A DNA stretch of 57,495 nt from IMG/VR virus record IMGVR_UViG_3300032220_001739. One strand, written 5' to 3'. Made by a program: the position numbers and the translations under genes. Below are positions 6,196 through 25,220 of this stretch, one piece after another (the stretch's first letter is position 1; every line of letters starts with the position of its first letter). The notes beneath the pieces are model-generated. The model was not told the DNA's origin. It worked only from the letters and a program-made list of their open reading frames with translations, and did not search any database. This stretch comes from an uncultured virus (IMG/VR IMGVR_UViG_3300032220_001739). Lineage: Duplodnaviria; Heunggongvirae; Uroviricota; Caudoviricetes.

Positions 6196-9100
6196 ATGCC
6201 AGTTTTATTTCCCGATAGGATACAACATAATAACCCCAACTATCCCGTAGTTTATTCTTCGGATGTCAAAGGTGGGTTACAGCAGGTTTCTACGTTTAGC
6301 AACGCTGATCTTAGCGCTACTTTTTCTCAGCAAACCTCTAAGTTTCAGACAGGATCGCTTCTGATTACCCTGGACACTAATGTGGTTTATTTTCTTAGCG
6401 GTAACACATCCGCTGGAAACGACCCGTTGTTCACAACAAGCTGGATACAATTAGCTCAGGGAACAGGTGGAACTGGTGCTACTGGAGCTACCGGTGTAAC
6501 AGGAGCAACCGGACCCGCTGGTGGAACTGGTGCTACTGGAGCTACTGGTGCAGCTGGATCATCTGGTGTTACTGGTGCTACAGGATCATCTGGTGTTACT
6601 GGTGCTACCGGTGCAACCGGAAGCGCTGGAACTACTGGTGCTACTGGTGCTACTGGATCATCTGGATCAACCGGACCCGCTGGTGCAACGGGAGCAACTG
6701 GACCTGCTGGAGCAACAGGTATAATTGGCGGAATCTATGGTCCTACAGGGTTATTAGCGGAGGGAGCTACCGGAATACAATTTTTAGGACCAGGCGTAAC
6801 CTCTGGAGTAGAAGGCTCTTTTGTAAAAGTTTACATATCTGGTGGAATCACAGGTCCGACTGGAGCTACTGGTGGCCTTGGACCTACTGGAGCTACTGGT
6901 ACTTATGGTCCCACCGGAGCGACAGGAGCTACAGGATTAGACGGCGACAGATATTCAACGCAGACAACTGCTCCTGTAACTATACAGCCATCAGGGCCTA
7001 TATCATTTACAGTAGGCTCAGGATTAGCTTACATAATAAATCAAGCAGTAATTATTTCGGTTAGCGCTGGAAATTACATGCAGGGTTTAGTTTCTAGCTA
7101 CGATAGCACTACCGGTGCTATGACTGTTAATGTTACCAGTAGTACAGGGTCTGGTACGGGGACAGGACTTGTTAACTTGGATGGAGCTGCTGGTGGTGAC
7201 GGTACATCTGGTACTTCCGGTACCTCCGGAACTAGTGGGACTTCTGGAACTAGTGGATCGTCCGGAACATCTGGTACTACTGGAACCTCTGGAACATCTG
7301 GCACATCCGGATCCTCCGGAACATCTGGCACATCCGGTACTTCAGGATCGTCTGGTACATCCGGATCTTCAGGAACAAATGGTACTTCTGGAACAACCGG
7401 TACATCTGGATCATCCGGAACTAGCGGAATTGATGGGATATCTGGTACATCGGGATCTTCCGGAACAACTGGTACCTCTGGAACCTCTGGATCCTCTGGG
7501 ACTAGAGGAACATCAGGAACCTCTGGTACTTCAGGGTCATCCGGTACCTCTGGGTCTTCAGGAACAAATGGTACATCCGGTACAACAGGAACATCGGGCT
7601 CGTCTGGTACATCTGGAACTTCTGGATCTAGTGGAACAAGTGGAACCTCAGGTACATCAGGATCTTCCGGAACAACTGGAACGTCAGGAACTTCCGGTAC
7701 ATCGGGAACCTCCGGTACATCTGGTTCGTCTGGTACATCTGGGACTTCTGGCTCTAGTGGAACGAGTGGAACTTCTGGATCAAGCGGTACGTCTGGTTCT
7801 AGCGGAACAAGCGGAATCAATGGTGACAGATATTTTACTTTAACAACGGGATCTATAACCGTACCTTCCTCTGGTAATATTAATTTTACAGTAGCTCCTG
7901 GACTTGCCTATAGTATAAATCAGTTGGTGTTAATTTCAGTTAGCTATGGTAATTATCTTCAAGGAAGTGTAGTTTCGTACAATCCTGCAAACGGAGACAT
8001 GACTGTCAATGTCAGCACCAGCACAGGTGGACCTTCAACCGGGATAGCGACTGTTAATCTTGATGGTGCTGCAGGAGGTGATGGAACTTCAGGAACATCT
8101 GGATCATCTGGAACTTCAGGAACATCAGGTACATCTGGGATATCTGGATCCTCTGGAACCTCCGGTACTTCGGGATCGTCTGGAACTTCGGGATCATCCG
8201 GAACATCTGGGTCAAACGGCACCTCTGGAACTAGCGGTATAGACGGGATATCAGGAACATCTGGATCATCTGGAACTTCAGGATCTTCTGGAACCTCTGG
8301 AACCTCTGGAACCTCTGGATCATCTGGTACATCGGGAACGAGTGGTTCGTCTGGAACATCCGGGTCTTCTGGTACAAGTGGTACATCAGGATCGTCAGGT
8401 ACAAGTGGGGTTAGTTTATCAGTTTATGGAACTAGTGGGAATCTTCTAACAGCTGGCGCAACTGGAATACAATTTACTGGTCCTGGTATTTCTTCAGTCA
8501 CTGCAAGTGGAAATTTCGTAACAGTCAATGTTACAGGTGGGAGCGGAGGTAACACTGCTAATTTTGATTTCCTGCCTAATGCTGGTTTAGCTTGGCTTAA
8601 TGGAACCACCGGTGGAACAGCATATACCATTTATAACAATAATCTTGATCCTACCCTTACCACATCGTGCACTGTTGGTGGTCTTCCCGCTGGGACTACT
8701 GCTGGTATACTTAGTACGTGCACACTAGTTCAGCTCTTTAATAGAATATTATTCCCTACAGTTTTGCCAACCTATACAATTCCTACTATATCGCAATCCT
8801 CTACCGAATCCGGCATAAAAGAGGTTGGTTCATCTATGTCTCAGACTGTATCTGTGACTGGTGTAAATAATGACGCTGCAGCATACACTTGCATGAGAGT
8901 TTGTAGAAATGTTAATAGTGCGGGATATTCACTATTGGGATCCGCTAATACATTCACGCAGACTTTATTATCACCGCTTCCTGCACAATTTGGATACCCT
9001 AACAACAACACACCAAATTGTTCCTATGCATATTCATATCCGGAGGGATCTATAACAGTTTGCTCACCGTCTGGTTCCAATCTTTGCTCTACACTTGTTT

Positions 9101-9609
9101 ATTGCGCAGATGGCGATTATAATGCAGGGACCGCATTAAAAGACAATTACGGTATTTTCGACACTAGAACTCCAGCTGTTAGACAATCTAGTGCACCACA
9201 GGCAGCTTCTAATGGTTTCGCTACATCGGCAACCACAGTTTGTGGATTTTATCCTTTCTTCTATGGTTGTTCATCCACTCAACTGACAGCTAGCCAAATA
9301 CAATCTTGTATAAATGCTGGTATCTATCAATGTAAATGTGTGGCCACTGCAGCGGGATCTATATTAATGAATTTTAATATAACCGGATGTTGGACTTGGT
9401 TTGCAACATATGCATGTAATGCTACAAAAACAACTTGGTCTGAAGTAGGCAATCCACTTAACACCGGAAACATAGGTTCGCCTACGGATTTATTTGCATC
9501 GCCTACAACTTTGCCATGTAATTCTAACGTCTCGTATTGGTCAAGTGTTAACTTTAAGATCTATCCATCTAATAAAGTAACAACGATAAATACAGCATCT
9601 ATATCATAA
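6196..9609 (+). CDS. collagen-like (Gly-X-Y) fibre protein with GAT and GTS/GSS repeats and a Cys-rich C-terminal domain
   Basis: 1137 aa. Uninterrupted Gly-every-third-residue tracts (GATGAT..., GTSGSS...) are separated by two copies of a ~85 aa beta domain. Confidence 0.8.
7198..8409 (+). repeat. 9-bp-period degenerate coding repeats (GGN ACN TCN / GGN TCN TCN), two tracts
   Basis: Directly visible ggtacatct/ggaacttct/ggatcttcc units, interrupted by one beta-domain copy at about 7825-8080. Confidence 0.9.
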
Positions 9610-9636
9610 TAAAAGAAAGAGCAGAAGAGTTAAGAA

Positions 9637-12600
9637 ATGGCAATAAATTTATCGGATAACCTACTAGTACAGACTACGTTTCCCACTGATTCGAGGTATG
9701 GCCCGTATAGTGGAGCTAGTGATACCGCGGCAAAATTAGCTGCTAACACTTTCTTAATTCCTTCTTACAGATACATCGGTCTCACGGTCGGACTAATCAT
9801 AGCTGGTGGACCGATAGTAGAATATTGGTATTATCAAGGAGTATTAGACACAGACCTAGTTCCTAAATTAGGTGGTGGTGGAACATCAGGTACAAGCGGA
9901 ACGTCTGGTACCTCTGGGTCTTCAGGAACCAGTGGAACTAGTGGTATTAGTGGAGATCAATATTTTACCCAAACCACGGGTAGCGTAACAGTTCCCTCGT
10001 CTGGTAATATTAATTTTACAGTAGCGCCAGGACTTGCTTATAGTATAAACCAATCCGTTATAATTTCCGTTAGTTATGGGAATTATATTCAGGGTGATGT
10101 TGTTTCATATGATTCCTCAACTGGTGCAATGACCGTCAATGTCACTAGTAGCACAGGAAGTGGATCTGGAACTGCAACTGTTAATTTGGATGGAGCTGCG
10201 GGTGGCGACGGTACATCTGGTACTTCGGGATCTTCAGGTACATCGGGTACTTCAGGTTCTTCAGGAACTAGAGGAACATCTGGAACATCAGGAACATCTG
10301 GGTCATCAGGAACTACTGGAACCTCCGGTACTTCCGGTACTAGCGGATCGTCAGGAACTTCAGGATCATCTGGAACTAGAGGGACATCCGGAACTAGTGG
10401 ATCATCTGGAACGACAGGTACTTCCGGTACTTCAGGCTCGTCTGGAACATCTGGTTCTAACGGTACCTCGGGAACAAGCGGAACCTCAGGATCCTCTGGA
10501 ACTAATGGTACCTCTGGGACTTCTGGAACATCTGGTACTTCAGGAACCTCCGGTTCGTCCGGAACCTCCGGTTCTAATGGCACGTCGGGCACCTCTGGAA
10601 CTTCCGGATCATCCGGAACTAACGGTACTTCAGGTACAACAGGTACATCTGGTACTTCCGGATCTTCTGGAACATCTGGAACATCCGGATCTTCTGGAAC
10701 ATCTGGGTCTTCAGGAACTAACGGAACATCAGGTACTACTGGTACATCAGGTACTTCTGGTTCTTCTGGTACAAGCGGATACACAGGTGACCGGTATTTA
10801 ACAAGCACAACTGGTAATATAACAATACCCACATCACCTGGTAATATCAGCTTTACCGTTTCGCCGGGATTGTCTTATAGCGTTAACCAGGACATCATCA
10901 TATCTGTTGGGTTTGGAAATTATTTGCAGGGTAGTGTTGATTCTTACGATCCTGTAACAGGAGATATGGTTGTTACTGTTACTACTAGCACAGGAACAGC
11001 CACAGGTATAGCAACTGTTAATCTAGACGGAGCAGCAGGCGGCGACGGAACATCAGGAACATCTGGTATAGATGGGATATCCGGTACGTCAGGATCATCC
11101 GGTACATCAGGATCGAATGGCACATCAGGAACATCTGGGTCTTCTGGAACTAATGGCACATCAGGCACAACCGGTACTTCTGGTACCTCAGGATCTAGTG
11201 GGACATCGGGGACATCCGGAACTTCTGGATCCTCCGGGACATCAGGTTCTTCCGGAACTAACGGTACATCGGGTACATCTGGAACATCCGGTTCTAGCGG
11301 AACCTCGGGATCCTCAGGTACTAGTGGTACTTCTGGAACCACAGGTACTTCGGGAACCTCTGGATCGTCGGGTACCTCTGGTTCTAGCGGAACCTCGGGA
11401 TCTTCCGGAACTAATGGTACATCAGGTACAACAGGTACATCAGGTACATCTGGTTCATCCGGAACTTCTGGATCCTCGGGTACAAGAGGTACATCTGGTA
11501 CATCCGGAACGTCTGGATCTAGTGGAACATCGGGATCATCAGGTACTACTGGTACTTCCGGAACGTCAGGAACTAGCGGATCTTCAGGTACATCGGGATC
11601 TTCTGGAACTAATGGTACATCAGGTACAACAGGTACGTCTGGAACCTCTGGATCATCTGGAACATCAGGTGTTCCTGGAACATCCGGAACATCTGGTACG
11701 TCCGGATCCTCAGGAACTAATGGTACATCAGGCACAACTGGTACATCTGGTACATCTGGAACATCTGGTTCATCTGGAACCTCCGGGTCAAATGGAACTT
11801 CTGGCACATCGGGATCTTCAGGAACTAATGGAACTTCCGGTACGACCGGAACGTCAGGTACATCTGGATCCTCTGGAACGTCTGGATCTAATGGGACATC
11901 TGGAACATCTGGTTCAAACGGAACATCCGGTACATCTGGTTCTTCGGGGACTAACGGAACTTCTGGTACTACTGGAACATCGGGTACATCAGGATCAAAT
12001 GGAACGTCCGGTACCTCAGGTCTAGATGGGGTTTCTGGTACTTCGGGATCCTCGGGTACATCAGGATCCTCCGGAACTAACGGCACGTCAGGTACTAGCG
12101 CAAATGATGGCACATCCGGTACATCGGGTACATCTGGGTCTAACGGTACATCAGGTACATCGGGATCAAATGGAACATCTGGTACTTCTGGATCCTCTGG
12201 TACTAACGGTACTTCTGGCACAACAGGAACATCCGGTACTAGCGGTAATAACGGAACATCTGGTACTTCTGGTACTTCGGGATCTAATGGAACATCTGGC
12301 ACTTCGGGGACATCCGGATCTTCTGGAACTAATGGAACCTCAGGAACAAGCGGAACATCTGGTTCTTCTGGAACTAGTGGTAGAAACGGTACTTCTGGAA
12401 CATCTGGTACTTCTGGCACGTCCGGGTCTCAGGGTAATAAAGCGGGCCTAATATATCAATTTGATGGATATTCTTCAGTAACTACCGGTGGGTTTGTGTA
12501 CACGAATGGTGGATTTGATTACAATCTAACACTTAGCAGCATTTCATACGAGGGAATAGATTACAGTGACTATTTCAATAATATATTAGGACAGAATGGA

Positions 12601-14718
12601 TATGTTTATATTGCGAGTAATCTAAATACTTCTTCGGATTTTGATATTTATTACTTTACAAATGTCACCCAAGTTTCTCCTAATTATTTATTCAGCGGAG
12701 GAGTTTTAACTAATGGCGGATTTACAACTTTTTCAAATGGTGATATAGCAGCTATTACTATAACAATCAATGGTAGTGGAACATCCGGAACATCTGGAAC
12801 ATCTGGGATTAATGGAACTTCAGGGACAAGGGGAACTTCTGGAACTAGCGGTAACGACGGTAGTTCAGGAACATCAGGTACTTCCGGTTCGAATGGATCA
12901 TCCGGGACCTCAGGAACTTCGGGATCTTCAGGAACGAAAGGAACATCAGGAACATCTGGGACATCAGGAACTTCGGGAATCTCGGGATCTTCCGGAACTA
13001 GCGGAACTAGCGGAACTAGCGGAACTAGCGGAAGCAGTGGAACTAGCGGATCTTCAGGTACAAGAGGAACTTCTGGAACTAGTGGATCTTCTGGAACCTC
13101 AGGAACTAGCGGAAGAGACGGAACTAGTGGAACTAGTGGAACCTCTGGTTCATCCGGAACAACGGGTACTTCAGGCTCGTCTGGAACTAGCGGTATTGAT
13201 GGTATATCAGGTACCTCTGGGTCCTCTGGTACTTCAGGTTCTTCCGGTACGAGAGGAACATCAGGTACATCTGGAACTACCGGAACCTCAGGAACATCTG
13301 GATCTTCTGGAACAAGGGGAACTTCAGGTACATCTGGATCTGCAGGAACCTCAGGTACTTCCGTAGATGTTTCGGGTACCCCGCCTAGTATGACCAGATT
13401 GATTACAATTGGTGCAGGTGTTGGTATTACAGCTTCCTCTTATATGACCGAGGCTGGAAGCTCAACCAATGGTTTAACCCAGCATGCTTTAAGCACAGGT
13501 GTTACGGATACCAGATTTGCTATAAGAGACGATTCAAGTAACATTGATCTTGGTTCTATAGGTATACTGGGCCAAAGACAAGGTGATTCTAAATTCTTCT
13601 TTACATTAGCTGGAACTGGATACGTAAAGAATTACTTACACGTTGGAGCAACTGGTACTGATCCATTAAGACTCCTTGGTGTACAAACTTCTACGGACTC
13701 TGATGTTTTAACTATAAGTTCTACCGGAATAGTTACTAAGAGGGATGCTAATTCACTATTTGGCGTTAATCTACAAAGAACTCTCTTTGTAGATCCAAAT
13801 GGAACTAATGCAACAGCTGAAGTCGGTAATATAAGAAAGCCATACTTAACTATAGGTGGTGCACTCAATAAAATAATATCGGATAACCTAAATGGATACA
13901 CGATACATGTATTCAAGGGGTCTTATATAGAGACGACTGGTTATACATTTGGAAACAATCAAGGATTTAACTTATGGTTTGAGGATGGGGTTACCTTAAC
14001 ATTTAATGCGAGTAGTACATATTTCATAACTTGTAATTCTACAAGCAGAATAGAAATATCTATAGCCGGATCAGATAGACCACTAGATGCAGCTATGTCA
14101 ACTGCTTCCTGTAAAATACAGATCAGAGGAAATAGCGGATTGTTAAACAACACGGGTAACCTAGTGTTTAGCTTAAATAGTGTCGGTGTAAACAATAACG
14201 TCAATAGCGGGACATTTGATATGATAAATTGTACAGCTGGAGCTAATTCGTACTATTTCGTTAACGATTGTCATCTTAATTTTAGTCCGTCTACTTCGGG
14301 TACTGCAAGTGTTATACAGGTAAATTCCGGATCCTACATCGAAAGATTTACAATCAATAATAGCGTATTAAAGAATCACGGAACAAGCTCTTCTAATGCA
14401 ACTTTCTTAGCGGTGAGTGAAAAAGTTGATATTAGAATGTATGATAGTTACATTATATCCAAGGCTGGAAGAGGATTGACAGTGGCTGAACCTCAGGTTC
14501 TTGAGATTTCCAACGTCATGTTCTATAATATCTCTTCGCCCACAGCTGTTTATACAATATATGATACAGCTACTACAGGAACAACAGAGATAGACATAGG
14601 AGCTAGATGTATTTCTAACATGCTTCTTCCTGCTTCAGCCGGATCGACGCTGTTGAATAGAACAGGAGGGGATTTGGACTGCTCGCTTAATTTTGCTGAG
14701 CCTTTCATAGATCTGTAA
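9637..14718 (+). CDS. giant collagen-like GTS-repeat fibre protein with a C-terminal putative beta-helix domain
   Basis: 1693 aa with several hundred Gly-Thr/Ser-Ser/Asn triplets. The C-terminal region begins LFVDPNGTNATAEVGNIRKPYLTIGGAL...IHVFKGSY, typical of the N-cap of pectin-lyase-like beta helices. Confidence 0.8.
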   Translation: MAINLSDNLLVQTTFPTDSRYGPYSGASDTAAKLAANTFLIPSYRYIGLTVGLIIAGGPIVEYWYYQGVLDTDLVPKLGGGGTSGTSGTSGTSGSSGTSGTSGISGDQYFTQTTGSVTVPSSGNINFTVAPGLAYSINQSVIISVSYGNYIQGDVVSYDSSTGAMTVNVTSSTGSGSGTATVNLDGAAGGDGTSGTSGSSGTSGTSGSSGTRGTSGTSGTSGSSGTTGTSGTSGTSGSSGTSGSSGTRGTSGTSGSSGTTGTSGTSGSSGTSGSNGTSGTSGTSGSSGTNGTSGTSGTSGTSGTSGSSGTSGSNGTSGTSGTSGSSGTNGTSGTTGTSGTSGSSGTSGTSGSSGTSGSSGTNGTSGTTGTSGTSGSSGTSGYTGDRYLTSTTGNITIPTSPGNISFTVSPGLSYSVNQDIIISVGFGNYLQGSVDSYDPVTGDMVVTVTTSTGTATGIATVNLDGAAGGDGTSGTSGIDGISGTSGSSGTSGSNGTSGTSGSSGTNGTSGTTGTSGTSGSSGTSGTSGTSGSSGTSGSSGTNGTSGTSGTSGSSGTSGSSGTSGTSGTTGTSGTSGSSGTSGSSGTSGSSGTNGTSGTTGTSGTSGSSGTSGSSGTRGTSGTSGTSGSSGTSGSSGTTGTSGTSGTSGSSGTSGSSGTNGTSGTTGTSGTSGSSGTSGVPGTSGTSGTSGSSGTNGTSGTTGTSGTSGTSGSSGTSGSNGTSGTSGSSGTNGTSGTTGTSGTSGSSGTSGSNGTSGTSGSNGTSGTSGSSGTNGTSGTTGTSGTSGSNGTSGTSGLDGVSGTSGSSGTSGSSGTNGTSGTSANDGTSGTSGTSGSNGTSGTSGSNGTSGTSGSSGTNGTSGTTGTSGTSGNNGTSGTSGTSGSNGTSGTSGTSGSSGTNGTSGTSGTSGSSGTSGRNGTSGTSGTSGTSGSQGNKAGLIYQFDGYSSVTTGGFVYTNGGFDYNLTLSSISYEGIDYSDYFNNILGQNGYVYIASNLNTSSDFDIYYFTNVTQVSPNYLFSGGVLTNGGFTTFSNGDIAAITITINGSGTSGTSGTSGINGTSGTRGTSGTSGNDGSSGTSGTSGSNGSSGTSGTSGSSGTKGTSGTSGTSGTSGISGSSGTSGTSGTSGTSGSSGTSGSSGTRGTSGTSGSSGTSGTSGRDGTSGTSGTSGSSGTTGTSGSSGTSGIDGISGTSGSSGTSGSSGTRGTSGTSGTTGTSGTSGSSGTRGTSGTSGSAGTSGTSVDVSGTPPSMTRLITIGAGVGITASSYMTEAGSSTNGLTQHALSTGVTDTRFAIRDDSSNIDLGSIGILGQRQGDSKFFFTLAGTGYVKNYLHVGATGTDPLRLLGVQTSTDSDVLTISSTGIVTKRDANSLFGVNLQRTLFVDPNGTNATAEVGNIRKPYLTIGGALNKIISDNLNGYTIHVFKGSYIETTGYTFGNNQGFNLWFEDGVTLTFNASSTYFITCNSTSRIEISIAGSDRPLDAAMSTASCKIQIRGNSGLLNNTGNLVFSLNSVGVNNNVNSGTFDMINCTAGANSYYFVNDCHLNFSPSTSGTASVIQVNSGSYIERFTINNSVLKNHGTSSSNATFLAVSEKVDIRMYDSYIISKAGRGLTVAEPQVLEISNVMFYNISSPTAVYTIYDTATTGTTEIDIGARCISNMLLPASAGSTLLNRTGGDLDCSLNFAEPFIDL
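10207..13362 (+). repeat. 9-bp-period degenerate coding repeats ([12 protein letters not shown]), three tracts
   Basis: Tracts at about 10207-10780, 11045-12435 and 12772-13360, with synonymous variation between units. Confidence 0.9.
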
Positions 14719-14745
14719 TAAATAGAGTAGGATAAATAGAGTAAT

Positions 14746-18595: not shown

Positions 18596-21500
18596 GTGAA
18601 GAAATTATTGATAATAACATCTCATCTGTCAACTGGTGGACTACCGCAAGTTGTGTGTAAGAAAATAGAACTTTTAAAAGACGAATTCGAGATAAAGTGC
18701 ATAGAATGGGATTTCCTATCTCCTGATTATGTGGTGCAAAGAAATCTTATAATTGAGTACCTAGGGGATTCCTTAGTCACTGCATCCGGTGATAAGAAGG
18801 ATTTTCTTTCCAATATATTGAACGAATACTCCCCTGATATTGTTTCTCTGGAGGAATTCCCTGAGCTTTTCATGGACGACGATTGTACATCGGTAATCTA
18901 TTCTGAGAACAGAACTTGGTCGATCACAGAAACAACCCACACTTCAACTTTCCCTACTGTTTCAAAAAGATGGCTTCCTGATAGATTCGTTTTCGTGTCA
19001 GAATTTACTAGAAGAAACTATGAGCACTTAGGAATACCTATCGATCTTATAGAATACCCTGTCGATAAAAAAGAAAGGGACCAGCACAAAGCTCAGTTGG
19101 ATCTTTCTCTAGATCCAGATTACAAACACGTTGTAATAGTTGGACTGTTTACTAGAAATAAAAATCAGGGATATGCATTCGATATAGCTAGGAAGCTAAG
19201 CGAAGAAAGGGTAAGATTTCACTTCTTAGGGAACCAAGCGGGAAATTTTGAGGAATATTGGGGACCTCTTATGCAGAACAAGCCTGACAATTGTGTGGTT
19301 TGGGGTGAAAGATCTGACGTTGATACATTTTTAAGGGCTGCCGATATTTTTCTATTCCCATCAATATTGGAATTAAATCCCCTTTGCGTGAAGGAAGCTA
19401 TGGAATATTCTCTTCCTATAATGCTCTTTCAACTTGACACATATTGCGGTAAATATAAAGGACTCGATAATGTGTACGACCTGACTGGTAACCCTTCTAA
19501 GGATGCATCTTTACTGATGACCATCCTCTCGAATAATCAATCTGAAGCGAAAAAACAGGTATTACCATTATTAAATGATCCTGCTATAAAAATGGTTCAC
19601 TTGCTTTTGAATCCTGATTACCAAGCAGATATACCCGATGAATCTTGGGGGTCTACAATCGATAAACAGAGAAGATCTATTGAGTATTTCAGAAAGATCT
19701 CGCATAAATTCTCTGCCCACTCGCAAATATTCTCGAATATAAATAGAACCGAGTTACCTGTTGAGTCGTGTGCTTCGCCCAGTAATCTGTATCATAATAA
19801 GGATCTTGAGGTTAAACCACACACTCTTTCATACGGCCACTATGGAGCATATGTTGCACATAAAAGAGGAATAACACAGGAGTTTACAGAAGAGTGTGAT
19901 TGCCTATTAGTTTTAGAAGCTGATGCTTATTCAAATCTAGATCCTATGGATTTCTATGAAAAGGTAATGGAAGCATATAGACTAGGGGTTGAAAGAAATG
20001 CTAGCATGGTTAGCTTAGCTGGTCCTTATTTTTTATCGGGTGAAGACTATTGGTCACAAATAGAAAATGTTGAAGGATATCCTGACTTTATAAAGGTACC
20101 TCATTTTCTGATGGGCACTGCTTATCTTGTATTCAAAAAAGAGAGAAATTCAATAATAGAAAAATTTGAAACGAGAGGCTGGCAATCCCCTGATATATGG
20201 TTAGCATGGAATCACAATAAGCAGGGTGACGTTTTCTGTTCAAGAGAATATTTTGCTTATCAGGTTTCTGGATACTCACTATTGGACTTTCACGAAAAAG
20301 ACGATCAGCCAGCTTACATCCCTGCTAAAAAAAAACATTTGAGCGAGAAGCAATCTAGATCTCGTATTGGTGTTTTAGTGGTGAATCTTAACAATCTTGG
20401 TTTTACAAAGAATTGCATAAATGATCTTTTAGAACAGGACATTGACTTTGACCTGTGCTTGATCGACCAAAATAGTTCAGAACCTGGAACTAGAGAATAT
20501 CTGGAGGAGATTGGTAAAATGCAGGATTCCCGTATTAAGAATATTGATATAATATTGAACAATAGCAACGAGCCACTGAATCATCTCTGGAATAATTTTG
20601 TAGAAAAATATGATAACGATTTTCTTTGTATATTAAACAATGACGTTAGGATATCTCCGAATTTTCTTTCTAGCGCTCTAGATGTATTTGAAAGAGAACC
20701 TGGTGTTGGTTTTGTTAACCATGCTACTAATAGCTCGAATCTTACAGAATGGTCATACGATCTGAATTATAGTATAATAGATTCACCATATAGGCAGGGG
20801 TGGGATTTTATATTCAGAAGAGAAGCATATAGTAGAATACCTGACACTTTAAAATTCTTCTATGGTGATGATTACATATATTCCAAGTTATATTCAGCAG
20901 GAATGAAAGGAGCTTATGTTTTAAATTCTCCTATGATTCATTACGAGAGAAGTACTACTGTGGAAAAAGGTGGGCAAAGAGATGCTTCTCCTGATGGTGA
21001 TTCTTTTCACAGATTGGATCTAGAATATAAGGGTCTAAGTTTTGTGGATGAATTTAGCAAATGGAAACCTGAGTTTAACCAAATTAGTGAAAAAAAATTA
21101 ATTTCGCAAGAACCAGAAATTAATTCTGATAAGATAGACCTTTCTATTCTAATATGTTCTCTTTTGGAAAGAAGAAACTCATTTCTCAACGATCTTCTTG
21201 ATAATCTCGAAAGACAAGTCGGTGACAGAAAAAATGTTGAAATTATAGTACTCTCAGATAACGCTAGGAGGAAAATAGGTGGAAAAAGAAACGATGCTAT
21301 TAGTATAGCAAGGGGTGAGTATATTTGTTTTATAGACGATGATGATAAAATATCTGAGGATTACGTGGACCTAATACTTAAGGAAATAAAAGAATGGAAA
21401 CCTGATGTTGTAGTTTTTGATGCAATAATCACTAATAATGGTCAAAATCCAAAGCTAGTTAAGTATGGAAGAGAATTTGACCATTGTGAAAAAGAAGAAG

Positions 21501-21694
21501 CTTATTACAGAAGGCCTAATCATTTAATGGTTCATAGAAAATCTAACATCAAAGAGTATTTCATGGATGTTAAAACAGGAGAAGATGACGAATGGGCTTC
21601 AAGAATGTTGGACAGAATAGTCACACAACAGAGAATAGAAAAGGTGCTCTATTTTTATGACTACAGAACTACAACTAAGAAATATTTTAGCTAA
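18596..21694 (+). CDS. multidomain glycosyltransferase (GT4/GT-B + GT25-like + two GT2/GT-A domains)
   Basis: GT4 motifs: HLSTGG, VGLFTRNKNQ, FLFPSILELNPLCVKEAM. Middle domain: GHYGAYVAH...LVLEADA. First GT2: LIDQNS...ILNND...YGDD. Second GT2: IGGKRN...ARGEYICFIDDDD...GED. GTG start. Confidence 0.85.
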   Translation: MKKLLIITSHLSTGGLPQVVCKKIELLKDEFEIKCIEWDFLSPDYVVQRNLIIEYLGDSLVTASGDKKDFLSNILNEYSPDIVSLEEFPELFMDDDCTSVIYSENRTWSITETTHTSTFPTVSKRWLPDRFVFVSEFTRRNYEHLGIPIDLIEYPVDKKERDQHKAQLDLSLDPDYKHVVIVGLFTRNKNQGYAFDIARKLSEERVRFHFLGNQAGNFEEYWGPLMQNKPDNCVVWGERSDVDTFLRAADIFLFPSILELNPLCVKEAMEYSLPIMLFQLDTYCGKYKGLDNVYDLTGNPSKDASLLMTILSNNQSEAKKQVLPLLNDPAIKMVHLLLNPDYQADIPDESWGSTIDKQRRSIEYFRKISHKFSAHSQIFSNINRTELPVESCASPSNLYHNKDLEVKPHTLSYGHYGAYVAHKRGITQEFTEECDCLLVLEADAYSNLDPMDFYEKVMEAYRLGVERNASMVSLAGPYFLSGEDYWSQIENVEGYPDFIKVPHFLMGTAYLVFKKERNSIIEKFETRGWQSPDIWLAWNHNKQGDVFCSREYFAYQVSGYSLLDFHEKDDQPAYIPAKKKHLSEKQSRSRIGVLVVNLNNLGFTKNCINDLLEQDIDFDLCLIDQNSSEPGTREYLEEIGKMQDSRIKNIDIILNNSNEPLNHLWNNFVEKYDNDFLCILNNDVRISPNFLSSALDVFEREPGVGFVNHATNSSNLTEWSYDLNYSIIDSPYRQGWDFIFRREAYSRIPDTLKFFYGDDYIYSKLYSAGMKGAYVLNSPMIHYERSTTVEKGGQRDASPDGDSFHRLDLEYKGLSFVDEFSKWKPEFNQISEKKLISQEPEINSDKIDLSILICSLLERRNSFLNDLLDNLERQVGDRKNVEIIVLSDNARRKIGGKRNDAISIARGEYICFIDDDDKISEDYVDLILKEIKEWKPDVVVFDAIITNNGQNPKLVKYGREFDHCEKEEAYYRRPNHLMVHRKSNIKEYFMDVKTGEDDEWASRMLDRIVTQQRIEKVLYFYDYRTTTKKYFS

Positions 21695-23283
21695 TGAATA
21701 GGTCAGAGATAATTAATTATCTTATATCAGTAAACGGGTATAAGTCTTTTCTAGAAATAGGTGTACAGGAGAAAATTAATTTTGGATCCATTCAGATTGA
21801 TAAAAAAGTATGCGTTGATCCTGATGCATCCAGAGGGGCTGATTTTATAATGACCTCGGATGAATTTTTCAAAAGAAACAGGGATAAATTCGACATTATT
21901 TTTGTAGACGGGCTACATCATGCTGATTTTTGTTATAGGGATGTAATAAATTCTCTAAAAATATTGAATATAGGTGGATGTGTAGTAGTGCATGATGTTA
22001 TTCCCTATACATACGAATCCCAATTGATACCGTTTGATAAATCCTACTCATCAGGATCCGATGCTTGGAACGGTGACGTATGGAAAGCATGGATAAGATT
22101 AAGGGAGGAGAGAAAAGATCTTTTGATGCATTGTGTTGATGACGACTGGGGGTGTGGAATCATTAGTTTTTCTAATAGTCCATGTAATATGGATATAGAT
22201 GTTTTCAATGGCGGGTATTATGTGTATGACAAAGATTTAATATTGGAAAATTCAAACGTTATCTCTGTAGATCAATTCAAAGAAATATACTCCGAAAGGA
22301 TTATGAAAGCTGTTGATTCTCAGAAGAAAAGATGCTTCATAACACACACGGATAAAAACTACATACCTGTAGCTATCAATTTGGTCAAATCGCTATCAAT
22401 ATTTTCAGAGATTAAGATAATTGTTTATTGTGTAAATTGTACATCTGAAGAAACTCAGCCACTTCTTGAATTTGAAAATGCAATTGTTAGGGACATAAGA
22501 ATAGAAGATCTTATAGAATCCCATAATATAAACTTTGGTGATAATGGTAATTTCTACGTCGAGAGAGCAAACAAGAGGACATATCAAATACTATGTGCTA
22601 AAGTAAAGGCTATGCAATCCGCTTTATCTGAAGGATGGACAGAGATTTGCTATCTCGATTCTGATTGTCTCGCAACACCTATAATTAACGAGATATTTAA
22701 CTGGGGAGATTCTATTACCGATTATCCTTTGGGCACAGAGGGAATACACAATTATATGTTGATAATAAAAGACGGTAAGCAAATAGGTAATCCCTTTGAG
22801 AATTCTTGGCCTGAACCGGATAATAAACTGTGTTTAGAATGGCCACTTATGGAAATGCTGGGTGTTGGAACTGGAGATAGAGGAACATATAGAACAACCG
22901 GGATTATGTTAATGAATAGTAATTGTATCAATTTTGTTAATCAATGGAACGATGTGTGTGATCTCATCGGAAGAAATTATAACGATCCTTCCAATATAGC
23001 TCCTTTTCACGAGGAGACTGTATTCAATGTCTTACTTTGGAAGAAGGGTAATAACGGTTTGCCTCTTTGCTACATTAATATAGCCGAAGGTGTTAAAACT
23101 GTTAAGGATTTCTATAGCGATTCGGTATCTGCTGGTACAAGATCTTGGGATGAAGAGGAACACGATAAGAGATTTTTTGCTATACCGAATGACAAAAGCC
23201 ACGTAAAAGTTCTTCATGGAGAGAAAAGGAAGGATGAGGCCAATTTAATAATAGATTTTTTATCCAGTAAGAATGAGAAATAG
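21694..23283 (+). CDS. class I SAM methyltransferase (Methyltransf_24-like) fused to a GT-A glycosyltransferase-like domain
   Basis: Methyltransferase motifs FLEIGV, VCVDP, FDIIFVDGLH and GGCVVVHD. The C-terminal half has a DxD motif (YLDSD), plus TTGIML and EETVFN. Confidence 0.8.
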   Translation: MNRSEIINYLISVNGYKSFLEIGVQEKINFGSIQIDKKVCVDPDASRGADFIMTSDEFFKRNRDKFDIIFVDGLHHADFCYRDVINSLKILNIGGCVVVHDVIPYTYESQLIPFDKSYSSGSDAWNGDVWKAWIRLREERKDLLMHCVDDDWGCGIISFSNSPCNMDIDVFNGGYYVYDKDLILENSNVISVDQFKEIYSERIMKAVDSQKKRCFITHTDKNYIPVAINLVKSLSIFSEIKIIVYCVNCTSEETQPLLEFENAIVRDIRIEDLIESHNINFGDNGNFYVERANKRTYQILCAKVKAMQSALSEGWTEICYLDSDCLATPIINEIFNWGDSITDYPLGTEGIHNYMLIIKDGKQIGNPFENSWPEPDNKLCLEWPLMEMLGVGTGDRGTYRTTGIMLMNSNCINFVNQWNDVCDLIGRNYNDPSNIAPFHEETVFNVLLWKKGNNGLPLCYINIAEGVKTVKDFYSDSVSAGTRSWDEEEHDKRFFAIPNDKSHVKVLHGEKRKDEANLIIDFLSSKNEK

Positions 23284-24016
23284 TGTTTCGCTTTTAGTAC
23301 ACACCTGTGATGCTTATATGAAATTCTGGGGTGGTATGTTATACACTCTTGATTTTTATTGGGACTATGACAGGATCCCTGTTTACTTTTCCTCTGAGGA
23401 TGTAAGCGTGGATTCGGTTAAATTTGATTGTAAGGGGATAGAATATCACATTGACGAAAGGATCAATACGATACTAACAGGTGCTGGGGAATTCTCTGAT
23501 AGATTCATCAAATCTCTAGAGAACATAGATACAAAATGGGTTATTTATATTCAGGAGGATATGTGGTTAAGAGGACATCTTAGTCCTGACCTAGTGGATC
23601 TTCTCATAGATGAGGCTGAAAAAGACGGTGCCGATGCGGTCAAAATACACGCAGCCCTTTATTATTATAATGGATATCGTTTAGAAAAAACTGGTAAGTA
23701 TATCCAGGATAAACAAATTTTGAAATATTCGCAGGGAGACAATTTTCTATTAACCCATAATGCTACGATATGGAATAGGGAATACCTATTAAAATACCAG
23801 TTAAAGGGTGAGGACCCCTGGTCTAATGAGATTAATGGAAGTTCTAGAATGTCAAGTGAGCCTCACAATCACCTACACTATAATATAAATTGGTATTGCC
23901 AGCCAGGATTGGCTGATAAAGGTGGGTACTCTAGTGAATTTCATGTTTATGCACATATAGTTGATCATATGAAATATGTGGATCTTAAATTTGGAAGAGA
24001 TGAAATTTTAGGATGA
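23273..24016 (+). CDS. putative GT-A fold glycosyltransferase
   Basis: LLVHTCDAY, FSDR and YIQEDMWL resemble phage GT-A-like proteins, and the gene sits inside the GT cluster. Confidence 0.55.
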   Translation: MRNSVSLLVHTCDAYMKFWGGMLYTLDFYWDYDRIPVYFSSEDVSVDSVKFDCKGIEYHIDERINTILTGAGEFSDRFIKSLENIDTKWVIYIQEDMWLRGHLSPDLVDLLIDEAEKDGADAVKIHAALYYYNGYRLEKTGKYIQDKQILKYSQGDNFLLTHNATIWNREYLLKYQLKGEDPWSNEINGSSRMSSEPHNHLHYNINWYCQPGLADKGGYSSEFHVYAHIVDHMKYVDLKFGRDEILG

Positions 24017-24041
24017 ACCCGAACTATTATTAGAAAAGAAT

Positions 24042-25220
24042 ATGGAAAGCAAATTAGTAAGAGAAAAATACATAGAATCCATAGGGAATGCTCTTTCTGG
24101 ACCTAGAATAGCTAGAAGATTCTCGAATAATTCTAAAAGCATTGCCTCTTTTACTCATAATTTTATAGATGGGCCTTTCTTTGAAATAAAAAATGGACAG
24201 GATGGTCAAAAATATAGAGTTGAGTTTAGGGATGGCAACGGACATCTACATTACACATCTGACCTTTCTAATAATATGTGGGCAAAGTCTTCTATAAAGT
24301 ATTACACAAAGTGGAATATAAAGGCAATAAGCGAGGGTAACTGCGTATATGATTACACTCTGGATTATACGAATAAAAGGGTGTACATATCTATAGAATC
24401 ATCCTCCATAGGGGATAATCTAGCCTGGATACCGTATATTGACGAGTTTAGAAAGAAGCACAATTGTCATGTAATAGTGTCAACTTTCCATAATTCTATA
24501 TTTGAAAGCAGTTATCAGGATCTTGAATTTATTAACCCTGGTGAAACTGCACATAATATAACTGGCCAATATACGATTGGGTGGTTTTATGATGAAACTA
24601 AAGAACCAGTTTTACCCAATACTGTGGCCCTTCAGAAAGCTGCAACCAATATATTGGGACTTGAATTTGAAGAGATTAGACCTAGACTTTCTTTTGATAG
24701 ATCCAATAGACCACATGACAAAAAATACGTAGTGATCTCAACTAGCTCCACGTCTGGTTGCAAGGAATGGGAACATGATAAATGGCAGGATCTTGTTAAT
24801 TTTTTGAAATCAAACGAATATGATGTTGCTGTGGTTCAAAAGGACGGGACTAGTCTAGACGGAGTAATAGATTGGACTGGACCTGATCCTTTAGAAAAAA
24901 GGATGAATCAGATATACCATGCTGATTTTTTCATAGGACTTGGTTCTGGTGTGAGCTGGCTTTCGTGGGCAGTTGGAACACATGTGGTTATGCTCGCTAA
25001 TTTTTCCGAGGATGGCCACGAGTTTACGGGTAACACCACACGTATAACAAATAAGAGTGTTTGTAATTCGTGCTGGAATAACAAGAATTTTAAATTTGAT
25101 AAGGGTGATTGGTACTGGTGCCCGATAAACAAAGGTACTGATAAACAATTTGAATGTCATAAGTCAATATCTGTAGATATGGTGACAAGTATAATTAAAG
25201 AAAAAGGATTAATAAAATGA
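24042..25220 (+). CDS. Aah/TibC-family (autotransporter O-heptosyltransferase-like) GT-B protein glycosyltransferase
   Basis: N-terminal beta domain, SSIGDNLAWIPY (catalytic Asp region), FFIGLGSGVSWLSWAVG, and the four-Cys iron finger VCNSCWN...WCP...FECHKSI that marks this family. Confidence 0.85.
   Translation: MESKLVREKYIESIGNALSGPRIARRFSNNSKSIASFTHNFIDGPFFEIKNGQDGQKYRVEFRDGNGHLHYTSDLSNNMWAKSSIKYYTKWNIKAISEGNCVYDYTLDYTNKRVYISIESSSIGDNLAWIPYIDEFRKKHNCHVIVSTFHNSIFESSYQDLEFINPGETAHNITGQYTIGWFYDETKEPVLPNTVALQKAATNILGLEFEEIRPRLSFDRSNRPHDKKYVVISTSSTSGCKEWEHDKWQDLVNFLKSNEYDVAVVQKDGTSLDGVIDWTGPDPLEKRMNQIYHADFFIGLGSGVSWLSWAVGTHVVMLANFSEDGHEFTGNTTRITNKSVCNSCWNNKNFKFDKGDWYWCPINKGTDKQFECHKSISVDMVTSIIKEKGLIK

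What the first reader, a model, noticed from the sequence alone, without database searches (positions are those of the whole stretch)
6196..25220. Candidate phage-encoded virion O-glycosylation system: Aah/TibC-type transferase cassette next to giant Ser/Thr repeat fibres
Seen: three consecutive huge structural-type genes carrying many hundreds of Ser/Thr in repeats are followed directly by four glyco-genes (~7 GT-like domains plus a methyltransferase). The last retains the GD catalytic motif and the CxxC...C...C iron finger. Known: Aah/TibC enzymes processively O-heptosylate Ser/Thr in repeats of bacterial autotransporter adhesins using ADP-heptose. Inference: the phage builds a densely glycosylated, possibly methyl-capped, glycan coat on its own fibres, with the TibC-like enzyme priming and the multi-domain GTs extending. 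Possible roles are fibre stability, adhesion or shielding. The sugar donor is unknown and need not be heptose.
Basis: partly seen in the sequence, partly recalled or inferred. Interest (0 to 1): 0.9.

Follow-up and report, generated by a model that had tools for sequence, protein, structure and literature searches.

The report
Phage fibre sugar-coating gene cassette
A giant phage carries, directly after its huge collagen-like fibre genes, a block of sugar-adding enzymes led by a relative of the enzyme that glycosylates bacterial adhesins, and the same pairing recurs in many other phages and some bacteria, which suggests that these fibres are sugar-coated.

Summary
Two giant collagen-like genes are built of Gly-Thr-Ser triplets (6196-9609, 9637-14718). 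A 15-residue-repeat beta-solenoid gene follows (14746-18546). Four tightly packed soluble glyco-genes come next, with about 7 GT-like modules and one methyltransferase. The last gene (24042-25220) scores above NCBIfam's curated cut-off for the Aah/TibC family (TIGR04414, 273.8 vs 200 bits). It keeps TibC's catalytic Asp, phosphate and sugar contacts, adenine-contact Arg and all four iron-finger Cys.

New here:
- The enzyme falls on one side of a well-supported split in the family tree. Every locus with G-[ST]-[ST] repeat proteins lies on that side. The other side lies next to AIDA-type autotransporters.
- 16 of 20 related viral loci hold a GTS-collagen or beta-solenoid giant gene 0.7-5.5 kb from the enzyme gene.
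- TibC-like genes occur in 18 of 43 records with GTS-collagen, against 1 of 42 records with Pro-type collagen.
- The enzyme is usually fused to GT4 and GT8-like modules. The rest of the cassette is swapped in a close relative.

Best reading (about 0.7): a phage-encoded O-glycosylation system for virion fibres. No biochemical test was possible and the donor sugar is unproven. It is a new variant of known kinds.

The parts
338..1087 (+). T4 gp15-like tail sheath stabiliser; left boundary of the fibre and glyco insert
   Evidence: Pfam T4-gp15_tss, E 6.5e-07
1447..2541 (+). Fibre-type protein with an Mtd_N domain; first gene of the fibre cluster (context)
   Evidence: Pfam Mtd_N, E 5.3e-13
4531..6165 (+). 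544-aa fibre-module protein. It shares an N-terminal domain with 9637-14718 and an 'ATG.QF.G.GV...FVTV.V.G' motif with 6196-9609. It has no collagen run.
   Evidence: Direct reading of the translations; no Pfam or PHROG hit
6196..9609 (+). GTS-type collagen-like giant fibre protein 1 (1137 aa). Collagen segments are broken by small beta domains, and the C-terminal part is Cys-rich.
   Evidence: PF01391, E 1.6e-54. PHROG tail-fibre families. 137 triplets: 64 GTS, 29 GSS; Pro 0.03/0.00. S+T = 410.
9637..14718 (+). GTS-type collagen-like giant fibre protein 2 (1693 aa)
   Evidence: PF01391, E 1e-115. 293 triplets: 172 GTS, 54 GSS; no Pro. S+T = 710.
14746..18546 (+). Beta-solenoid fibre protein built of about 15-residue 'S-x-I-x-G-G-x-x-N' repeats (1266 aa)
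   Evidence: 50 motifs, modal spacing 15. AF2 model of aa 100-600: pLDDT 80, all-beta. VIA-align hits are beta-solenoids, including glycosylated TibA55-350 at Z 14.8, rmsd 3.8. Homologous segments lie inside the giant genes next to TibC-like genes in 9 of 20 viral loci.
18596..19585 (+). GT4 (GT-B) module of the 1032-aa multi-GT protein; the conserved partner of the TibC-like module
   Evidence: Pfam Glycos_transf_1 / Glyco_trans_1_4. aa 1-~285 match the N-terminal or central part of the TibC-fusion proteins of 16 distant loci at 36-42% identity.
19598..20365 (+). Middle module (aa 335-590), GT25-like (a lead only)
   Evidence: No Pfam hit even at E 5. Atlas feature search: a cluster with PF01755 Glyco_transf_25 in 75% of members, score 0.96, 193 shared features. 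BLAST to a 239-aa ORF of G001.
20372..21691 (+). Two GT2 (GT-A) modules (aa ~593-785 and ~841-1027)
   Evidence: Pfam Glycos_transf_2, E 1.7e-21, 2 stretches. PHROG glycosyltransferase families 8858 and 14775.
21694..22218 (+). SAM methyltransferase module (Methyltransf_24)
   Evidence: Pfam PF13578, E 6e-07, 30.8 bits against a cut-off of 26.3. A separate MT24 gene stands at the same place in L015, E 9.8e-18.
22225..23283 (+). GT8-like module with a D-S-D motif; the second conserved partner
   Evidence: BLAST E 3e-29 to L015:5902-7485, whose N-terminal half hits Pfam Glyco_transf_8 (E 2.3e-05, 24.5 bits against 24.3). Homologues occur in 10 of 18 distant loci, 6 of them inside the TibC fusion protein. 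No direct Pfam hit.
23273..24016 (+). 247-aa GT-A-fold protein of an unnamed viral family, with an invariant Q-E-D motif
   Evidence: AF2 on 28 sequences: pLDDT 91.8, pTM 0.90. The Foldseek top hits were GT-A glycosyltransferases, with a single Kdo-cytidylyltransferase row among those listed; E 1.6e-07, prob 1.0, TM 0.44-0.52.
24042..25220 (+). TibC/Aah-family (BAHT-like) protein O-glycosyltransferase; the presumed priming enzyme
   Evidence: TIGR04414, 2e-81, 273.8 bits against 200. TibC 4rap, 4e-48. D125, T237, K241, R287, W306, C341, C344, C360 and C372 align with TibC D110, T226, K230, R286, W305, C339, C342, C358 and C370.
25545..28052 (+). Neck protein (T4 gp13/14-like); right boundary after a 324-bp gap
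   Evidence: Pfam T4_neck-protein. 95-97% identical in the relatives L005 and G001, whose cassettes differ.

Best explanation
The region is a virion-fibre O-glycosylation system of a T4-like jumbo phage.

Proposed mechanism:
- Late in infection the giant fibre proteins are made in the cytoplasm. These are two Pro-free, uncharged (Gly-Thr-Ser)n collagen-like proteins and one beta-solenoid protein.
- The TibC-like enzyme (24042-25220) transfers a first sugar to Ser/Thr hydroxyls of the G-[ST]-[ST] tracts. In this phage the donor is probably ADP-linked, with ADP-heptose the default guess. The beta-solenoid may also be modified.
- The conserved GT4 and GT8-like modules extend this to a short core, and the methyltransferase caps it.
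- The variable modules (GT25-like, two GT2, the GT-A protein) add a strain-specific outer part.
- The result is a dense glycan brush on fibres that lack every usual collagen stabiliser. The glycan therefore probably stabilises or stiffens the triple helix and sets the fibre's surface properties (adsorption, protection, antigenicity).

Shown: gene content, family membership by HMM, kept functional residues, solubility, gene linkage and its clade restriction.

Inferred: that glycosylation happens, the acceptor, the donor, the order of the enzymes and the biological role.
For: (1) Enzyme identity. TIGR04414 scores above the curated cut-off in the window and in relatives: L008 244.7, G001 293, Mel-JY01 317.4 bits. 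TibC's catalytic Asp, beta-phosphate contacts (Thr, Lys), heptose-O4 Trp and four Fe-Cys are invariant in 22 of 22 phage sequences. In the 111 tree rows D, K and W are invariant, the Thr position is T or S, and one row has a gap at two Cys. Their roles come from PMC4358343.

(2) Forward linkage. 16 of 20 IMG/VR loci found through the enzyme hold a GTS-collagen (13) and/or GGxxN (9) giant ORF 744-5527 bp away. The other four are cut by contig ends. Partners carry the Peptidase_S74 fibre chaperone in 3 of the 7 loci scanned. Their triplets are always GTS > GSS/GTT with Pro and charge near zero. The cultured Microcystis phage Mel-JY01 has the same pair.

(3) Reverse linkage with control. TibC-like genes are in 18 of 43 viral records chosen by a GTS DNA pattern: 3 of 3 at >=90% completeness and 4 of 5 at >=80%. 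24 of the 25 negatives are under 40% complete. Only 1 of 42 records chosen by a Pro-type collagen pattern has one (1 of 16 at >=80%). Fisher p = 1e-5 and 0.004.

(4) Clade restriction. In a tree of 111 rows a 99% SH-aLRT split puts 62 bacterial rows with no G[ST][ST] neighbour on one side. All viral rows and all 12 bacterial rows with such a neighbour are on the other. In the first clade 7 of 16 sampled loci have AIDA-repeat or autotransporter neighbours, the known substrates.

(5) Independent context. In gammaproteobacterial and Bdellovibrio-like chromosomes the neighbour is a small lipoprotein or secreted protein. It shares only the (GSS/GTS/GTT)n tail with the phage fibres.

(6) Rosetta-stone fusions. 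GT4-TibC, or MT/GT8-like-GT4-TibC, is one polypeptide in 16 of 18 distant loci.

(7) The cassette is swapped in G001 while the flanks stay 97-98% identical and the TibC part stays 73% identical.

(8) All cassette proteins lack TM segments, with a maximum KD19 of 1.58. Genes overlap or lie 25-49 bp apart.

(9) Background from PMC11923368: (Gly-Pro-Thr)10 folds as a triple helix only when the Thr is glycosylated, and viral collagens otherwise rely on KGD/KGE salt bridges. The collagen region of BclA carries O-glycans (PMC12357932).
Against: - No biochemical or proteomic evidence exists, and nothing here shows a sugar on any fibre.
- LR756504 (636 kb) has a stand-alone TibC-like gene but no GTS pattern anywhere in the record.
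- One 84%-complete GTS-collagen record (G011) has no TibC-like gene. Twenty-five of the 43 GTS records lack it, though 24 of those are fragments.
- In several records the two genes are 10-40 kb apart, and about 475 kb apart in LR756501. Adjacency is therefore frequent but not obligatory.
- The GTS and control record sets differ in phage type and size, so shared descent could inflate the association.
- The beta-hairpin thumb needed for TibC's dodecamer is about 9 residues shorter.
- The adenine-contact Arg is kept in only 17 of 49 rows of this clade, so the donor is uncertain across the clade.
- No ADP-heptose pathway gene lies in the 57-kb window, and the host is unknown.
- Known BAHTs act on beta-helices, not on collagen-like tracts.
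Confidence: 0.7

Rival explanations
1. The system glycosylates virion fibres, but the TibC-like enzyme's acceptor is the beta-solenoid (GGxxN) protein or other beta-helical fibre domains, as in classical BAHTs. The collagen tracts would then be unmodified or handled by other enzymes.
For: Known BAHTs act on beta-helix passengers (PMC4358343). The GGxxN model is a beta-solenoid that aligns with the glycosylated TibA fragment 4q1q_B at Z 14.8, rmsd 3.8, 223 residues. Its gene lies directly before the cassette. GGxxN segments occur in the partner genes of 9 of 20 viral loci. Each repeat has a conserved Ser.
Against: Seven viral loci have GTS-collagen partners without GGxxN repeats. A search found no GGxxN homologue in Mel-JY01 or LR756501, which have the enzyme and GTS collagen, but that search had no positive control. 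The bacterial neighbours of this clade are small lipoproteins with (GSS)n tails and no solenoid. The Z scores lie in the range that any solenoid reaches (note).
Confidence: 0.12
2. The cassette does not act on the virion. It would remodel the host envelope (LPS core, exopolysaccharide) or glycosylate host proteins during infection, for example for superinfection exclusion. Its position beside the fibre genes would be incidental.
For: GT9-family relatives are LPS heptosyltransferases, with weak hits to TIGR02193 and TIGR02201. PHROGs files the GT modules under 'moron, auxiliary metabolic gene and host takeover'. G001's cassette resembles an O-antigen locus, with DegT, epimerases, an acetyltransferase and FkbM.
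Against: The best model by far is the protein-modifying TIGR04414 (273.8 bits against 20.6 for LPS heptosyltransferase I). The iron finger is kept. The cassette has no TM segment, flippase, polymerase or initiating phosphoglycosyl transferase. The linkage to GTS genes survives rearrangement and holds in both directions.
Confidence: 0.08
3. The glycosyltransferases hypermodify phage DNA (glycosylated bases) to evade restriction.
For: Phage GT-A and GT-B enzymes that glycosylate DNA are known (reviewed in passages of PMC12619734). A dCMP deaminase gene lies in the window at 38241-38789.
Against: No base hydroxymethylase or DNA-binding module is in the cassette. The cassette sits in the structural-gene block, not in the nucleotide-metabolism block. 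The TibC family is a protein O-glycosyltransferase family. The specific association with GTS proteins would be left unexplained.
Confidence: 0.03

Closest known systems
Bacterial autotransporter heptosyltransferases (BAHT: TibC, Aah; NCBIfam TIGR04414; PDB 4rap/4rb4)
   Same: Homologous over residues 52-386, above the curated HMM cut-off. It has the same catalytic Asp, Thr/Lys phosphate contacts, sugar-contact Trp, adenine-contact Arg (in this phage) and 4-Cys iron finger. It is a soluble cytoplasmic enzyme encoded beside a long Ser/Thr-bearing repeat protein that ends up on a surface.
   Different: It sits in a separate clade (99% SH-aLRT split). The region that holds the beta-hairpin thumb is 38-39 residues in 39 of 49 rows, against 47-48 in 62 of 62 classical rows. 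The Arg is kept in only 17 of 49 rows of the clade. It is usually fused to GT4, with or without a GT8-like or MT module. Its neighbours are G-[ST]-[ST] collagen-like tracts rather than AIDA-type beta-helix autotransporters. It is encoded by phages.
BclA-type collagen-like exosporium glycoproteins of the Bacillus cereus group
   Same: A collagen-like G-X-Y stalk rich in Thr/Ser that carries short O-glycans, with a glycosyltransferase gene nearby (passages of PMC12357932).
   Different: BclA repeats are GPT-type; that detail is recalled and was not seen in a call. The glycosyltransferases there are not of the BAHT family as far as the passages read show. The host structure is a spore, not a virion.
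Mycobacteriophage virion glycosylation (Freeman et al. 2023)
   Same: Phage-encoded glycosyltransferases modify the phage's own structural proteins. This is known to me only as cited in PMC12619734; the paper itself was not read.
   Different: There the targets are the C-termini of capsid and tail-tube subunits, as stated in the citing passage. Here the presumed targets are giant collagen-like fibres with hundreds of potential sites. The lead enzyme is a BAHT relative, and the cassette is far larger.
Mimivirus collagen and its collagen-modifying glycosyltransferases (L230, R699)
   Same: A virus encodes both collagen-like proteins and enzymes that glycosylate them (titles and abstracts of PMC9546862 and PMC12279948). 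R699 appears among the GT-A fold matches of 23273-24016, at rank 29.
   Different: The mimivirus chemistry is hydroxylysine-linked as in animals, according to those titles. Here there is no Lys or hydroxylase, and the route would be direct Ser/Thr O-glycosylation by a GT-B BAHT relative.
Hypervariable O-antigen / capsule gene cassettes
   Same: A conserved anchor gene sits beside a swappable set of GTs and sugar-modifying enzymes between conserved flanks (G001 against the window).
   Different: There is no membrane step (no Wzx, Wzy or initiating transferase, and no TM segments). The presumed carrier is a protein, not a lipid.

Membership tests
BAHT / TIGR04414 (Aah-TibC autotransporter O-heptosyltransferases) | Full-length match to the family HMM above the curated cut-off | tested here: met
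   273.8 bits against a cut-off of 200, E 2e-81, covering residues 52-386 of the protein and positions 27-372 of the 374-position profile
BAHT / TIGR04414 | Catalytic base Asp-110 and donor contacts Thr-226, Lys-230, Arg-286 and Trp-305 of TibC | tested here: met
   D125, T237, K241, R287 and W306 align with them. Across the clade the Arg is kept in only 17 of 49 rows.
BAHT / TIGR04414 | Four-Cys iron-finger motif (Cys-339, 342, 358, 370) | tested here: met
   C341, C344, C360 and C372 align with them. They are invariant in 22 of 22 phage sequences, and 110 of 111 tree rows have all four. Iron binding itself could not be tested.
BAHT / TIGR04414 | [quoted passage not shown] | tested here: not met
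   There is a 9-residue gap against TibC exactly at the thumb. The V262-L300 segment is 38-39 residues in 39 of 49 rows of this clade, against 47-48 in 62 of 62 classical rows. I therefore file it as a divergent sister clade, not as an Aah/TibC-type enzyme. The oligomeric state is unknown.
BAHT / TIGR04414 | Encoded beside an AIDA-type beta-helix autotransporter substrate | tested here: not met
   No Autotransporter or AIDA Pfam domain was found in the window ORFs scanned. In the classical clade 7 of 16 sampled loci have one.
BAHT / TIGR04414 | Transfers heptose from ADP-heptose to Ser of the substrate | not testable with these tools
   Only residue conservation is available. No ADP-heptose pathway gene was seen in the window.
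Collagen-like (PF01391) trimeric phage fibres | Long uninterrupted G-X-Y runs matching the collagen HMM | tested here: met
   E 1.6e-54 and 1e-115. The longest runs are 210 and 351 residues.
Collagen-like (PF01391) trimeric phage fibres | A usual triple-helix stabiliser (Pro/Hyp or KGD/KGE-type charge pairs) | tested here: not met
   Pro is 0.00-0.03 and charged residues 0.01-0.05 per position. The usual viral pattern is described in PMC11923368.
Collagen-like (PF01391) trimeric phage fibres | A trimerisation or chaperone module of fibres | tested here: inconclusive
   Peptidase_S74 was found in the partner proteins of L008, L014 and L023 but not in the window's own proteins.
Phage virion glycosylation systems | Glycan demonstrated on a virion protein | not testable with these tools
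   No proteomic or RNA data were examined.

The most novel reading that the evidence does not exclude
A whole clade of BAHT-like enzymes, spread through aquatic jumbo phages and some bacteria, would act as 'collagen-tract O-glycosyltransferases'. They would replace hydroxyproline and salt bridges as the stabiliser of Pro-free (Gly-Thr-Ser)n triple helices, so the phage's giant fibres could fold only after glycosylation. The swappable outer part of the cassette, which includes sulfation genes in some relatives, would give each phage lineage its own fibre glycan. That glycan would be a viral counterpart of an O-antigen, shaping adsorption and escape from host or grazer recognition.
Probability: 0.4. 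Interest if true: 0.9.

Novelty: new variant of a known kind. Interest (0 to 1): 0.78.

Why it matters
Giant collagen-like fibre genes are common in environmental phages. The first 151 pattern hits alone gave 63 contigs. How Pro-free, uncharged collagen could fold has no explanation.

If these fibres are glycoproteins made by a phage-borne BAHT-like system:
- Protein glycosylation of virions would be widespread outside mycobacteriophages.
- The BAHT family would gain a second substrate class. The Gly-Ser/Thr tracts include those of bacterial lipoproteins.
- Host-range studies and structural work on jumbo-phage fibres would have to take the glycan into account.
- The enzymes would be candidate tools for dense O-glycosylation of designed repeat proteins.

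A cultured phage (Mel-JY01) carries the pair, so the question can be tested directly.

Tried and rejected
- Megablast of 18596-30692 against phage records found no match.
- Promoter and terminator scans over 1-31000 gave counts at chance level and no clear operon boundary.
- Pfam at E<=5 on the middle module, the GT8-like half, the 247-aa protein and the N-terminus of the TibC-like protein gave nothing.
- Foldseek of the GGxxN model against the PDB gave no match at E<=0.001. Only the wider VIA-align search showed solenoids.
- The first genome-contig scan with the single protein found no relative. The scan with the alignment did.
- A search for GGxxN homologues in Mel-JY01, LR756501 and LR756504 was empty and had no positive control, so it is weak evidence.
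- I tested whether small nucleotidyltransferase genes near the enzyme in relatives (L008, L020, Mel-JY01) could make ADP-heptose. They gave only weak, below-cut-off NMN-adenylyltransferase-type hits, so no conclusion follows.
- Earlier findings of the scan were not open, and the window's own assembly is not held.
- Literature searches found no description of a phage BAHT-like enzyme or of heptosylated or glycosylated collagen-like phage fibres in the held library. Subscription-only papers are not covered.
- I did not run complex prediction, sequencing-run look-ups or the representative-protein search.

Full report
**What is there.** All large ORFs of the window lie on the + strand. The context is the structural block of a T4-like jumbo phage:
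- gp15-like protein, 338-1087
- neck protein, 25545-28052
- large terminase, 28848-30692
- sheath, 30755-34096
- two portal paralogues, 48128-51366

The terminase is nearest to uncultured huge phages, Sphingomonas phage PAU and Tenacibaculum phage PTm1, at 33-39% identity. Six fibre-type genes (1447-18546) and four glyco-genes (18596-25220) are inserted between the gp15-like and neck genes. From 4531 onwards the genes overlap or lie 25-49 bp apart, and a 324-bp gap follows 25220.

**The fibre genes.**
- 6196-9609 and 9637-14718 match Pfam Collagen at E 1.6e-54 and 1e-115.
- They hold 137 and 293 in-register triplets. GTS (64 and 172) and GSS (29 and 54) dominate. Pro is 0-3% and charged residues 1-5% per position.
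- The coding DNA repeats are degenerate, at 61-81% matches, so the protein repeat is what is conserved.
- 14746-18546 matches no family. It is made of about 50 'S-x-I-x-G-G-x-x-N' units, mostly 15-17 residues apart.
- An AlphaFold model of residues 100-600 (7-row alignment) is an all-beta solenoid with pLDDT 80. Foldseek found nothing.
- VIA-align ranks solenoids highest:

| Match | Z | rmsd |
|---|---|---|
| CsgA | 18.7 | 8.3 |
| UspA1 head | 17.4 | 8.0 |
| A beta-helical antifreeze protein | 15.9 | 3.7 |
| Cyanophage tailspike | 15.8 | 3.4 |
| TibC-glycosylated TibA fragment 4q1q_B (223 aligned) | 14.8 | 3.8 |
| Ag43 | 13.1 | 5.3 |

For repeat proteins such Z values show a common architecture only.

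**The glyco-genes.**
- 18596-21694 has GT4, GT2 and GT2 domains. Its middle module has no Pfam hit and a GT25 lead from the protein atlas.
- 21694-23283 has a Methyltransf_24 domain. Its C-terminal half matches, at BLAST E 3e-29, a protein of locus L015 that just passes Pfam GT8.
- 23273-24016 belongs to an unnamed viral family of 50 hits. It models with pLDDT 91.8 as a GT-A fold.
- None of the four proteins has a hydrophobic stretch of transmembrane strength.
- 24042-25220 scores 273.8 bits on TIGR04414 against a cut-off of 200, and E 4e-48 against solved TibC.

Using the residue roles given in the TibC structure paper (PMC4358343; abstract, section 11 and passages read), the phage protein keeps all of the following:
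- the catalytic Asp
- the beta-phosphate contacts Thr and Lys
- the adenine-N1 contact Arg
- the heptose-O4 contact Trp
- all four iron-finger Cys

The stereoselectivity position (Pro-300 in TibC, Ser in Aah) is Gly. The beta-hairpin thumb, which builds TibC's dodecamer, is 9 residues shorter.

**Linkage, forward direction.**
- A scan of IMG/VR with the enzyme gave 20 loci.
- In 16 of them an ORF with GTS-type collagen runs (13 loci) and/or GGxxN repeats (9 loci) lies 744-5527 bp from the enzyme gene. It is usually convergent with it.
- The other four loci are limited by contig ends. One of them (G001) begins inside a collagen-like gene.
- The partner proteins of L008, L014 and L023 carry the Peptidase_S74 chaperone typical of trimeric phage fibres. 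The partners of the other four loci scanned did not.
- In every partner the triplets are GTS > GSS/GTT, without Pro or charge.
- The upstream flanks of the same loci hold a collagen-like ORF once in 20.
- In the GenBank phage set only four records have the enzyme.
  - Mel-JY01, a cultured Microcystis phage, has a GTS-collagen ORF two genes upstream.
  - The two LR756501/LR756503 records give identical hits. LR756501 has 834 GTS pattern matches, about 475 kb away from the enzyme gene.
  - LR756504 has none, which is a true exception.

**Linkage, reverse direction, with a control.**
These fall into 63 contigs.
- I took the 45 contigs with at least 50 in-register G[ST][ST] triplets in one ORF. 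That dropped 18 weaker contigs, two of which do have the enzyme in the locus.
- Of the 43 records that could be searched, 18 hold a TibC-like gene. That is 3 of 3 at >=90% completeness and 4 of 5 at >=80%. Of the 25 negatives, 24 are under 40% complete.
- As a control I took 46 contigs hit by a Gly-Pro-type collagen pattern, which I chose for longer length. Of the 42 searched, one holds the gene, and 1 of 16 does at >=80% completeness.
- Fisher p is 1e-5 and 0.004.
- The two sets differ in phage type, so common descent is not excluded by this test alone.

**Clade restriction and an independent context.**
- A profile scan of bacterial genomes found at least 605 relatives, and 80 loci were kept.
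- Twelve of the 80 have an ORF with at least 10 G[ST][ST] triplets in the locus. They are exactly the ones most similar to the phage enzymes.
- I built a tree of 111 rows with IQ-TREE (quick search, LG+G4). The rows were:

| Rows | Number |
|---|---|
| The window plus viral loci found by the enzyme | 19 |
| GenBank phage records | 3 |
| Viral loci found by the GTS pattern | 9 |
| Bacterial loci | 80 |

- I left out duplicates of a contig and matches under 280 residues.
- A split with 99% SH-aLRT support puts 62 bacterial rows, none with such a neighbour, on one side. All viral rows and all 12 positive bacterial rows are on the other.
- Among bacterial rows the count is 12 of 18 against 0 of 62 (p = 3e-10). 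The root is not known.
- As a positive control of the logic I sampled 16 loci of the 62-row side. Seven have an AIDA-repeat or autotransporter gene next to the enzyme gene, and four more have type-I secretion genes.
- On the phage side, the bacterial neighbours in Arenicellales, other Gammaproteobacteria and a Pseudobdellovibrionaceae genome are not fibres. They are small lipoprotein-like or secreted proteins whose only common feature with the phage fibres is a (GSS/GTS/GTT)n tail (Collagen hits).
- The two sides also differ in the enzyme itself. The thumb-bearing segment is 47-48 residues in 62 of 62 classical rows, against 38-39 in 39 of 49 rows. The adenine-contact Arg is kept in 61 of 62 classical rows, against 17 of 49.

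**Modules that travel together.**
- In 16 of the 18 distant viral loci the TibC-like module is the C-terminal part of a protein that also holds a homologue of the window's GT4 module. In six of them the fusion also holds the GT8-like module, with or without a methyltransferase.
- Mel-JY01 has a 1226-aa GT4...TibC fusion, annotated only as 'methyltransferase FkbM'.
- In G001 the neck, terminase and sheath proteins are 97-99% identical to the window's. The cassette between the last collagen-like gene and the neck gene is nonetheless different and larger. It holds DegT aminotransferase, two epimerase/dehydratases, a hexapeptide acetyltransferase, FkbM methyltransferases and further GTs.
- The TibC part in G001 remains 73% identical and is fused to GT2 and GT4 modules.
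- L005 has the window's cassette. Its glyco and fibre proteins are 59-86% identical to the window's, while the flanking proteins are 92-95% identical.

**Reading.** The simplest account is a conserved core (TibC-like, GT4, GT8-like and a methyltransferase) that builds a short glycan on G[ST][ST] tracts of the fibres, plus a variable outer set.
- Enzymes of this family act in the cytoplasm on the protein before export or assembly (PMC4358343), and the absence of membrane modules fits this.
- Pro-free, uncharged collagen has no known stabiliser.
- A paper on collagen folding reports that viral collagens rely on KGD/KGE salt bridges. It also reports that (Gly-Pro-Thr)10 is triple-helical only when the Thr is glycosylated (PMC11923368, passages).
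- BclA shows that bacterial collagen-like stalks carry O-glycans (PMC12357932, passages).
- That the glycan stabilises the helix here is an inference.
- The donor is open. The window's enzyme keeps the adenine contact, which favours an ADP-sugar. I saw no heptose pathway gene in the window, and much of the clade has lost that Arg.

**Novelty.**
- JGI's automatic annotation already names some of these proteins 'autotransporter strand-loop-strand O-heptosyltransferase'.
- Six literature searches found no discussion of a phage-borne member or of its link to collagen-like fibres. The library lacks most subscription papers.
- I rate it a new variant of known kinds: the BAHT family, collagen-like glycoproteins and phage virion glycosylation.

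Noticed in passing
window 48128-49702 and 49717-51366: Two adjacent T4-type portal (gp20) paralogues of 524 and 549 aa, both strong Pfam Portal_T4 matches (1.1e-56 and 3.6e-64). A tandem portal duplication is unusual.
   Followed up: no
L008 10965-12217 and L020 7247-8419, 11113-11931: In distant relatives a sulfotransferase, an APS-kinase-like gene and a small nucleotidyltransferase lie near the GT4-TibC gene. In L008 they sit between it and the fibre gene; in L020 only the sulfotransferase does, with the other two upstream. The fibre glycan may be sulfated there.
   Followed up: partly
L390 7738-9999 and L025 2-3052 (Mel-JY01, PP395634: record bases 187738-190001 and 2-3052): An unannotated + strand ORF runs off the end of the linear record and continues in frame at its start. 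Together the pieces give a giant protein of about 1770 aa with 199 GTS-type triplets. The record annotates two minus-strand CDSs and one short plus-strand CDS across this stretch instead.
   Followed up: partly
window 7098-7820(-), 10089-10832(-), 10944-12419(-), 11072-12025(+): Long ORFs in other frames or on the opposite strand of the collagen repeats ('PEVPDVP...' and similar). They are mirror frames of the GTS repeat, not genes.
   Followed up: no
L002 985-15423 (G001): The glyco cassette of a near-identical phage is replaced by a larger one with amino-sugar and deoxy-sugar enzymes. This is an O-antigen-like swap between 97-99% identical flanks.
   Followed up: yes
L314-L322, L371, L323 (bacterial chromosomes and MAG contigs): Stand-alone TibC-like genes sit next to small lipobox-bearing or secreted proteins with (GSS/GTS/GTT)n tails that end in acidic residues. 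This is a possible unrecognised bacterial lipoprotein glycosylation pair.
   Followed up: partly
L310, L311 (MAG contigs titled Sediminibacterium and Chitinophaga): The bacterial-genome hits nearest to the phage enzymes (50% identity) are short contigs in Chitinophagaceae MAGs, and L310 carries an 1131-aa fusion like the viral ones. They are probably binned phage DNA, which gives a weak hint at a Bacteroidota host.
   Followed up: no
L014 13935-14519, L017 5434-6222, L020 11960-12649, L023 6620-7198, 8526-9008 and 11047-11784: Homing-endonuclease-type genes (GIY-YIG, HNH, NUMOD) are repeatedly inserted around the TibC-like and fibre genes of relatives.
   Followed up: no
window 38241-39424, 46637-47483: A dCMP deaminase, two sigma-70/ECF-like factors (one short) and a TnsA-like endonuclease domain protein lie within the structural region.
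   Followed up: no
window 1447-2541: The first fibre-cluster protein has the N-terminal domain of the Bordetella phage major tropism determinant (Mtd_N, E 5.3e-13). I did not look for a diversity-generating retroelement.
   Followed up: no
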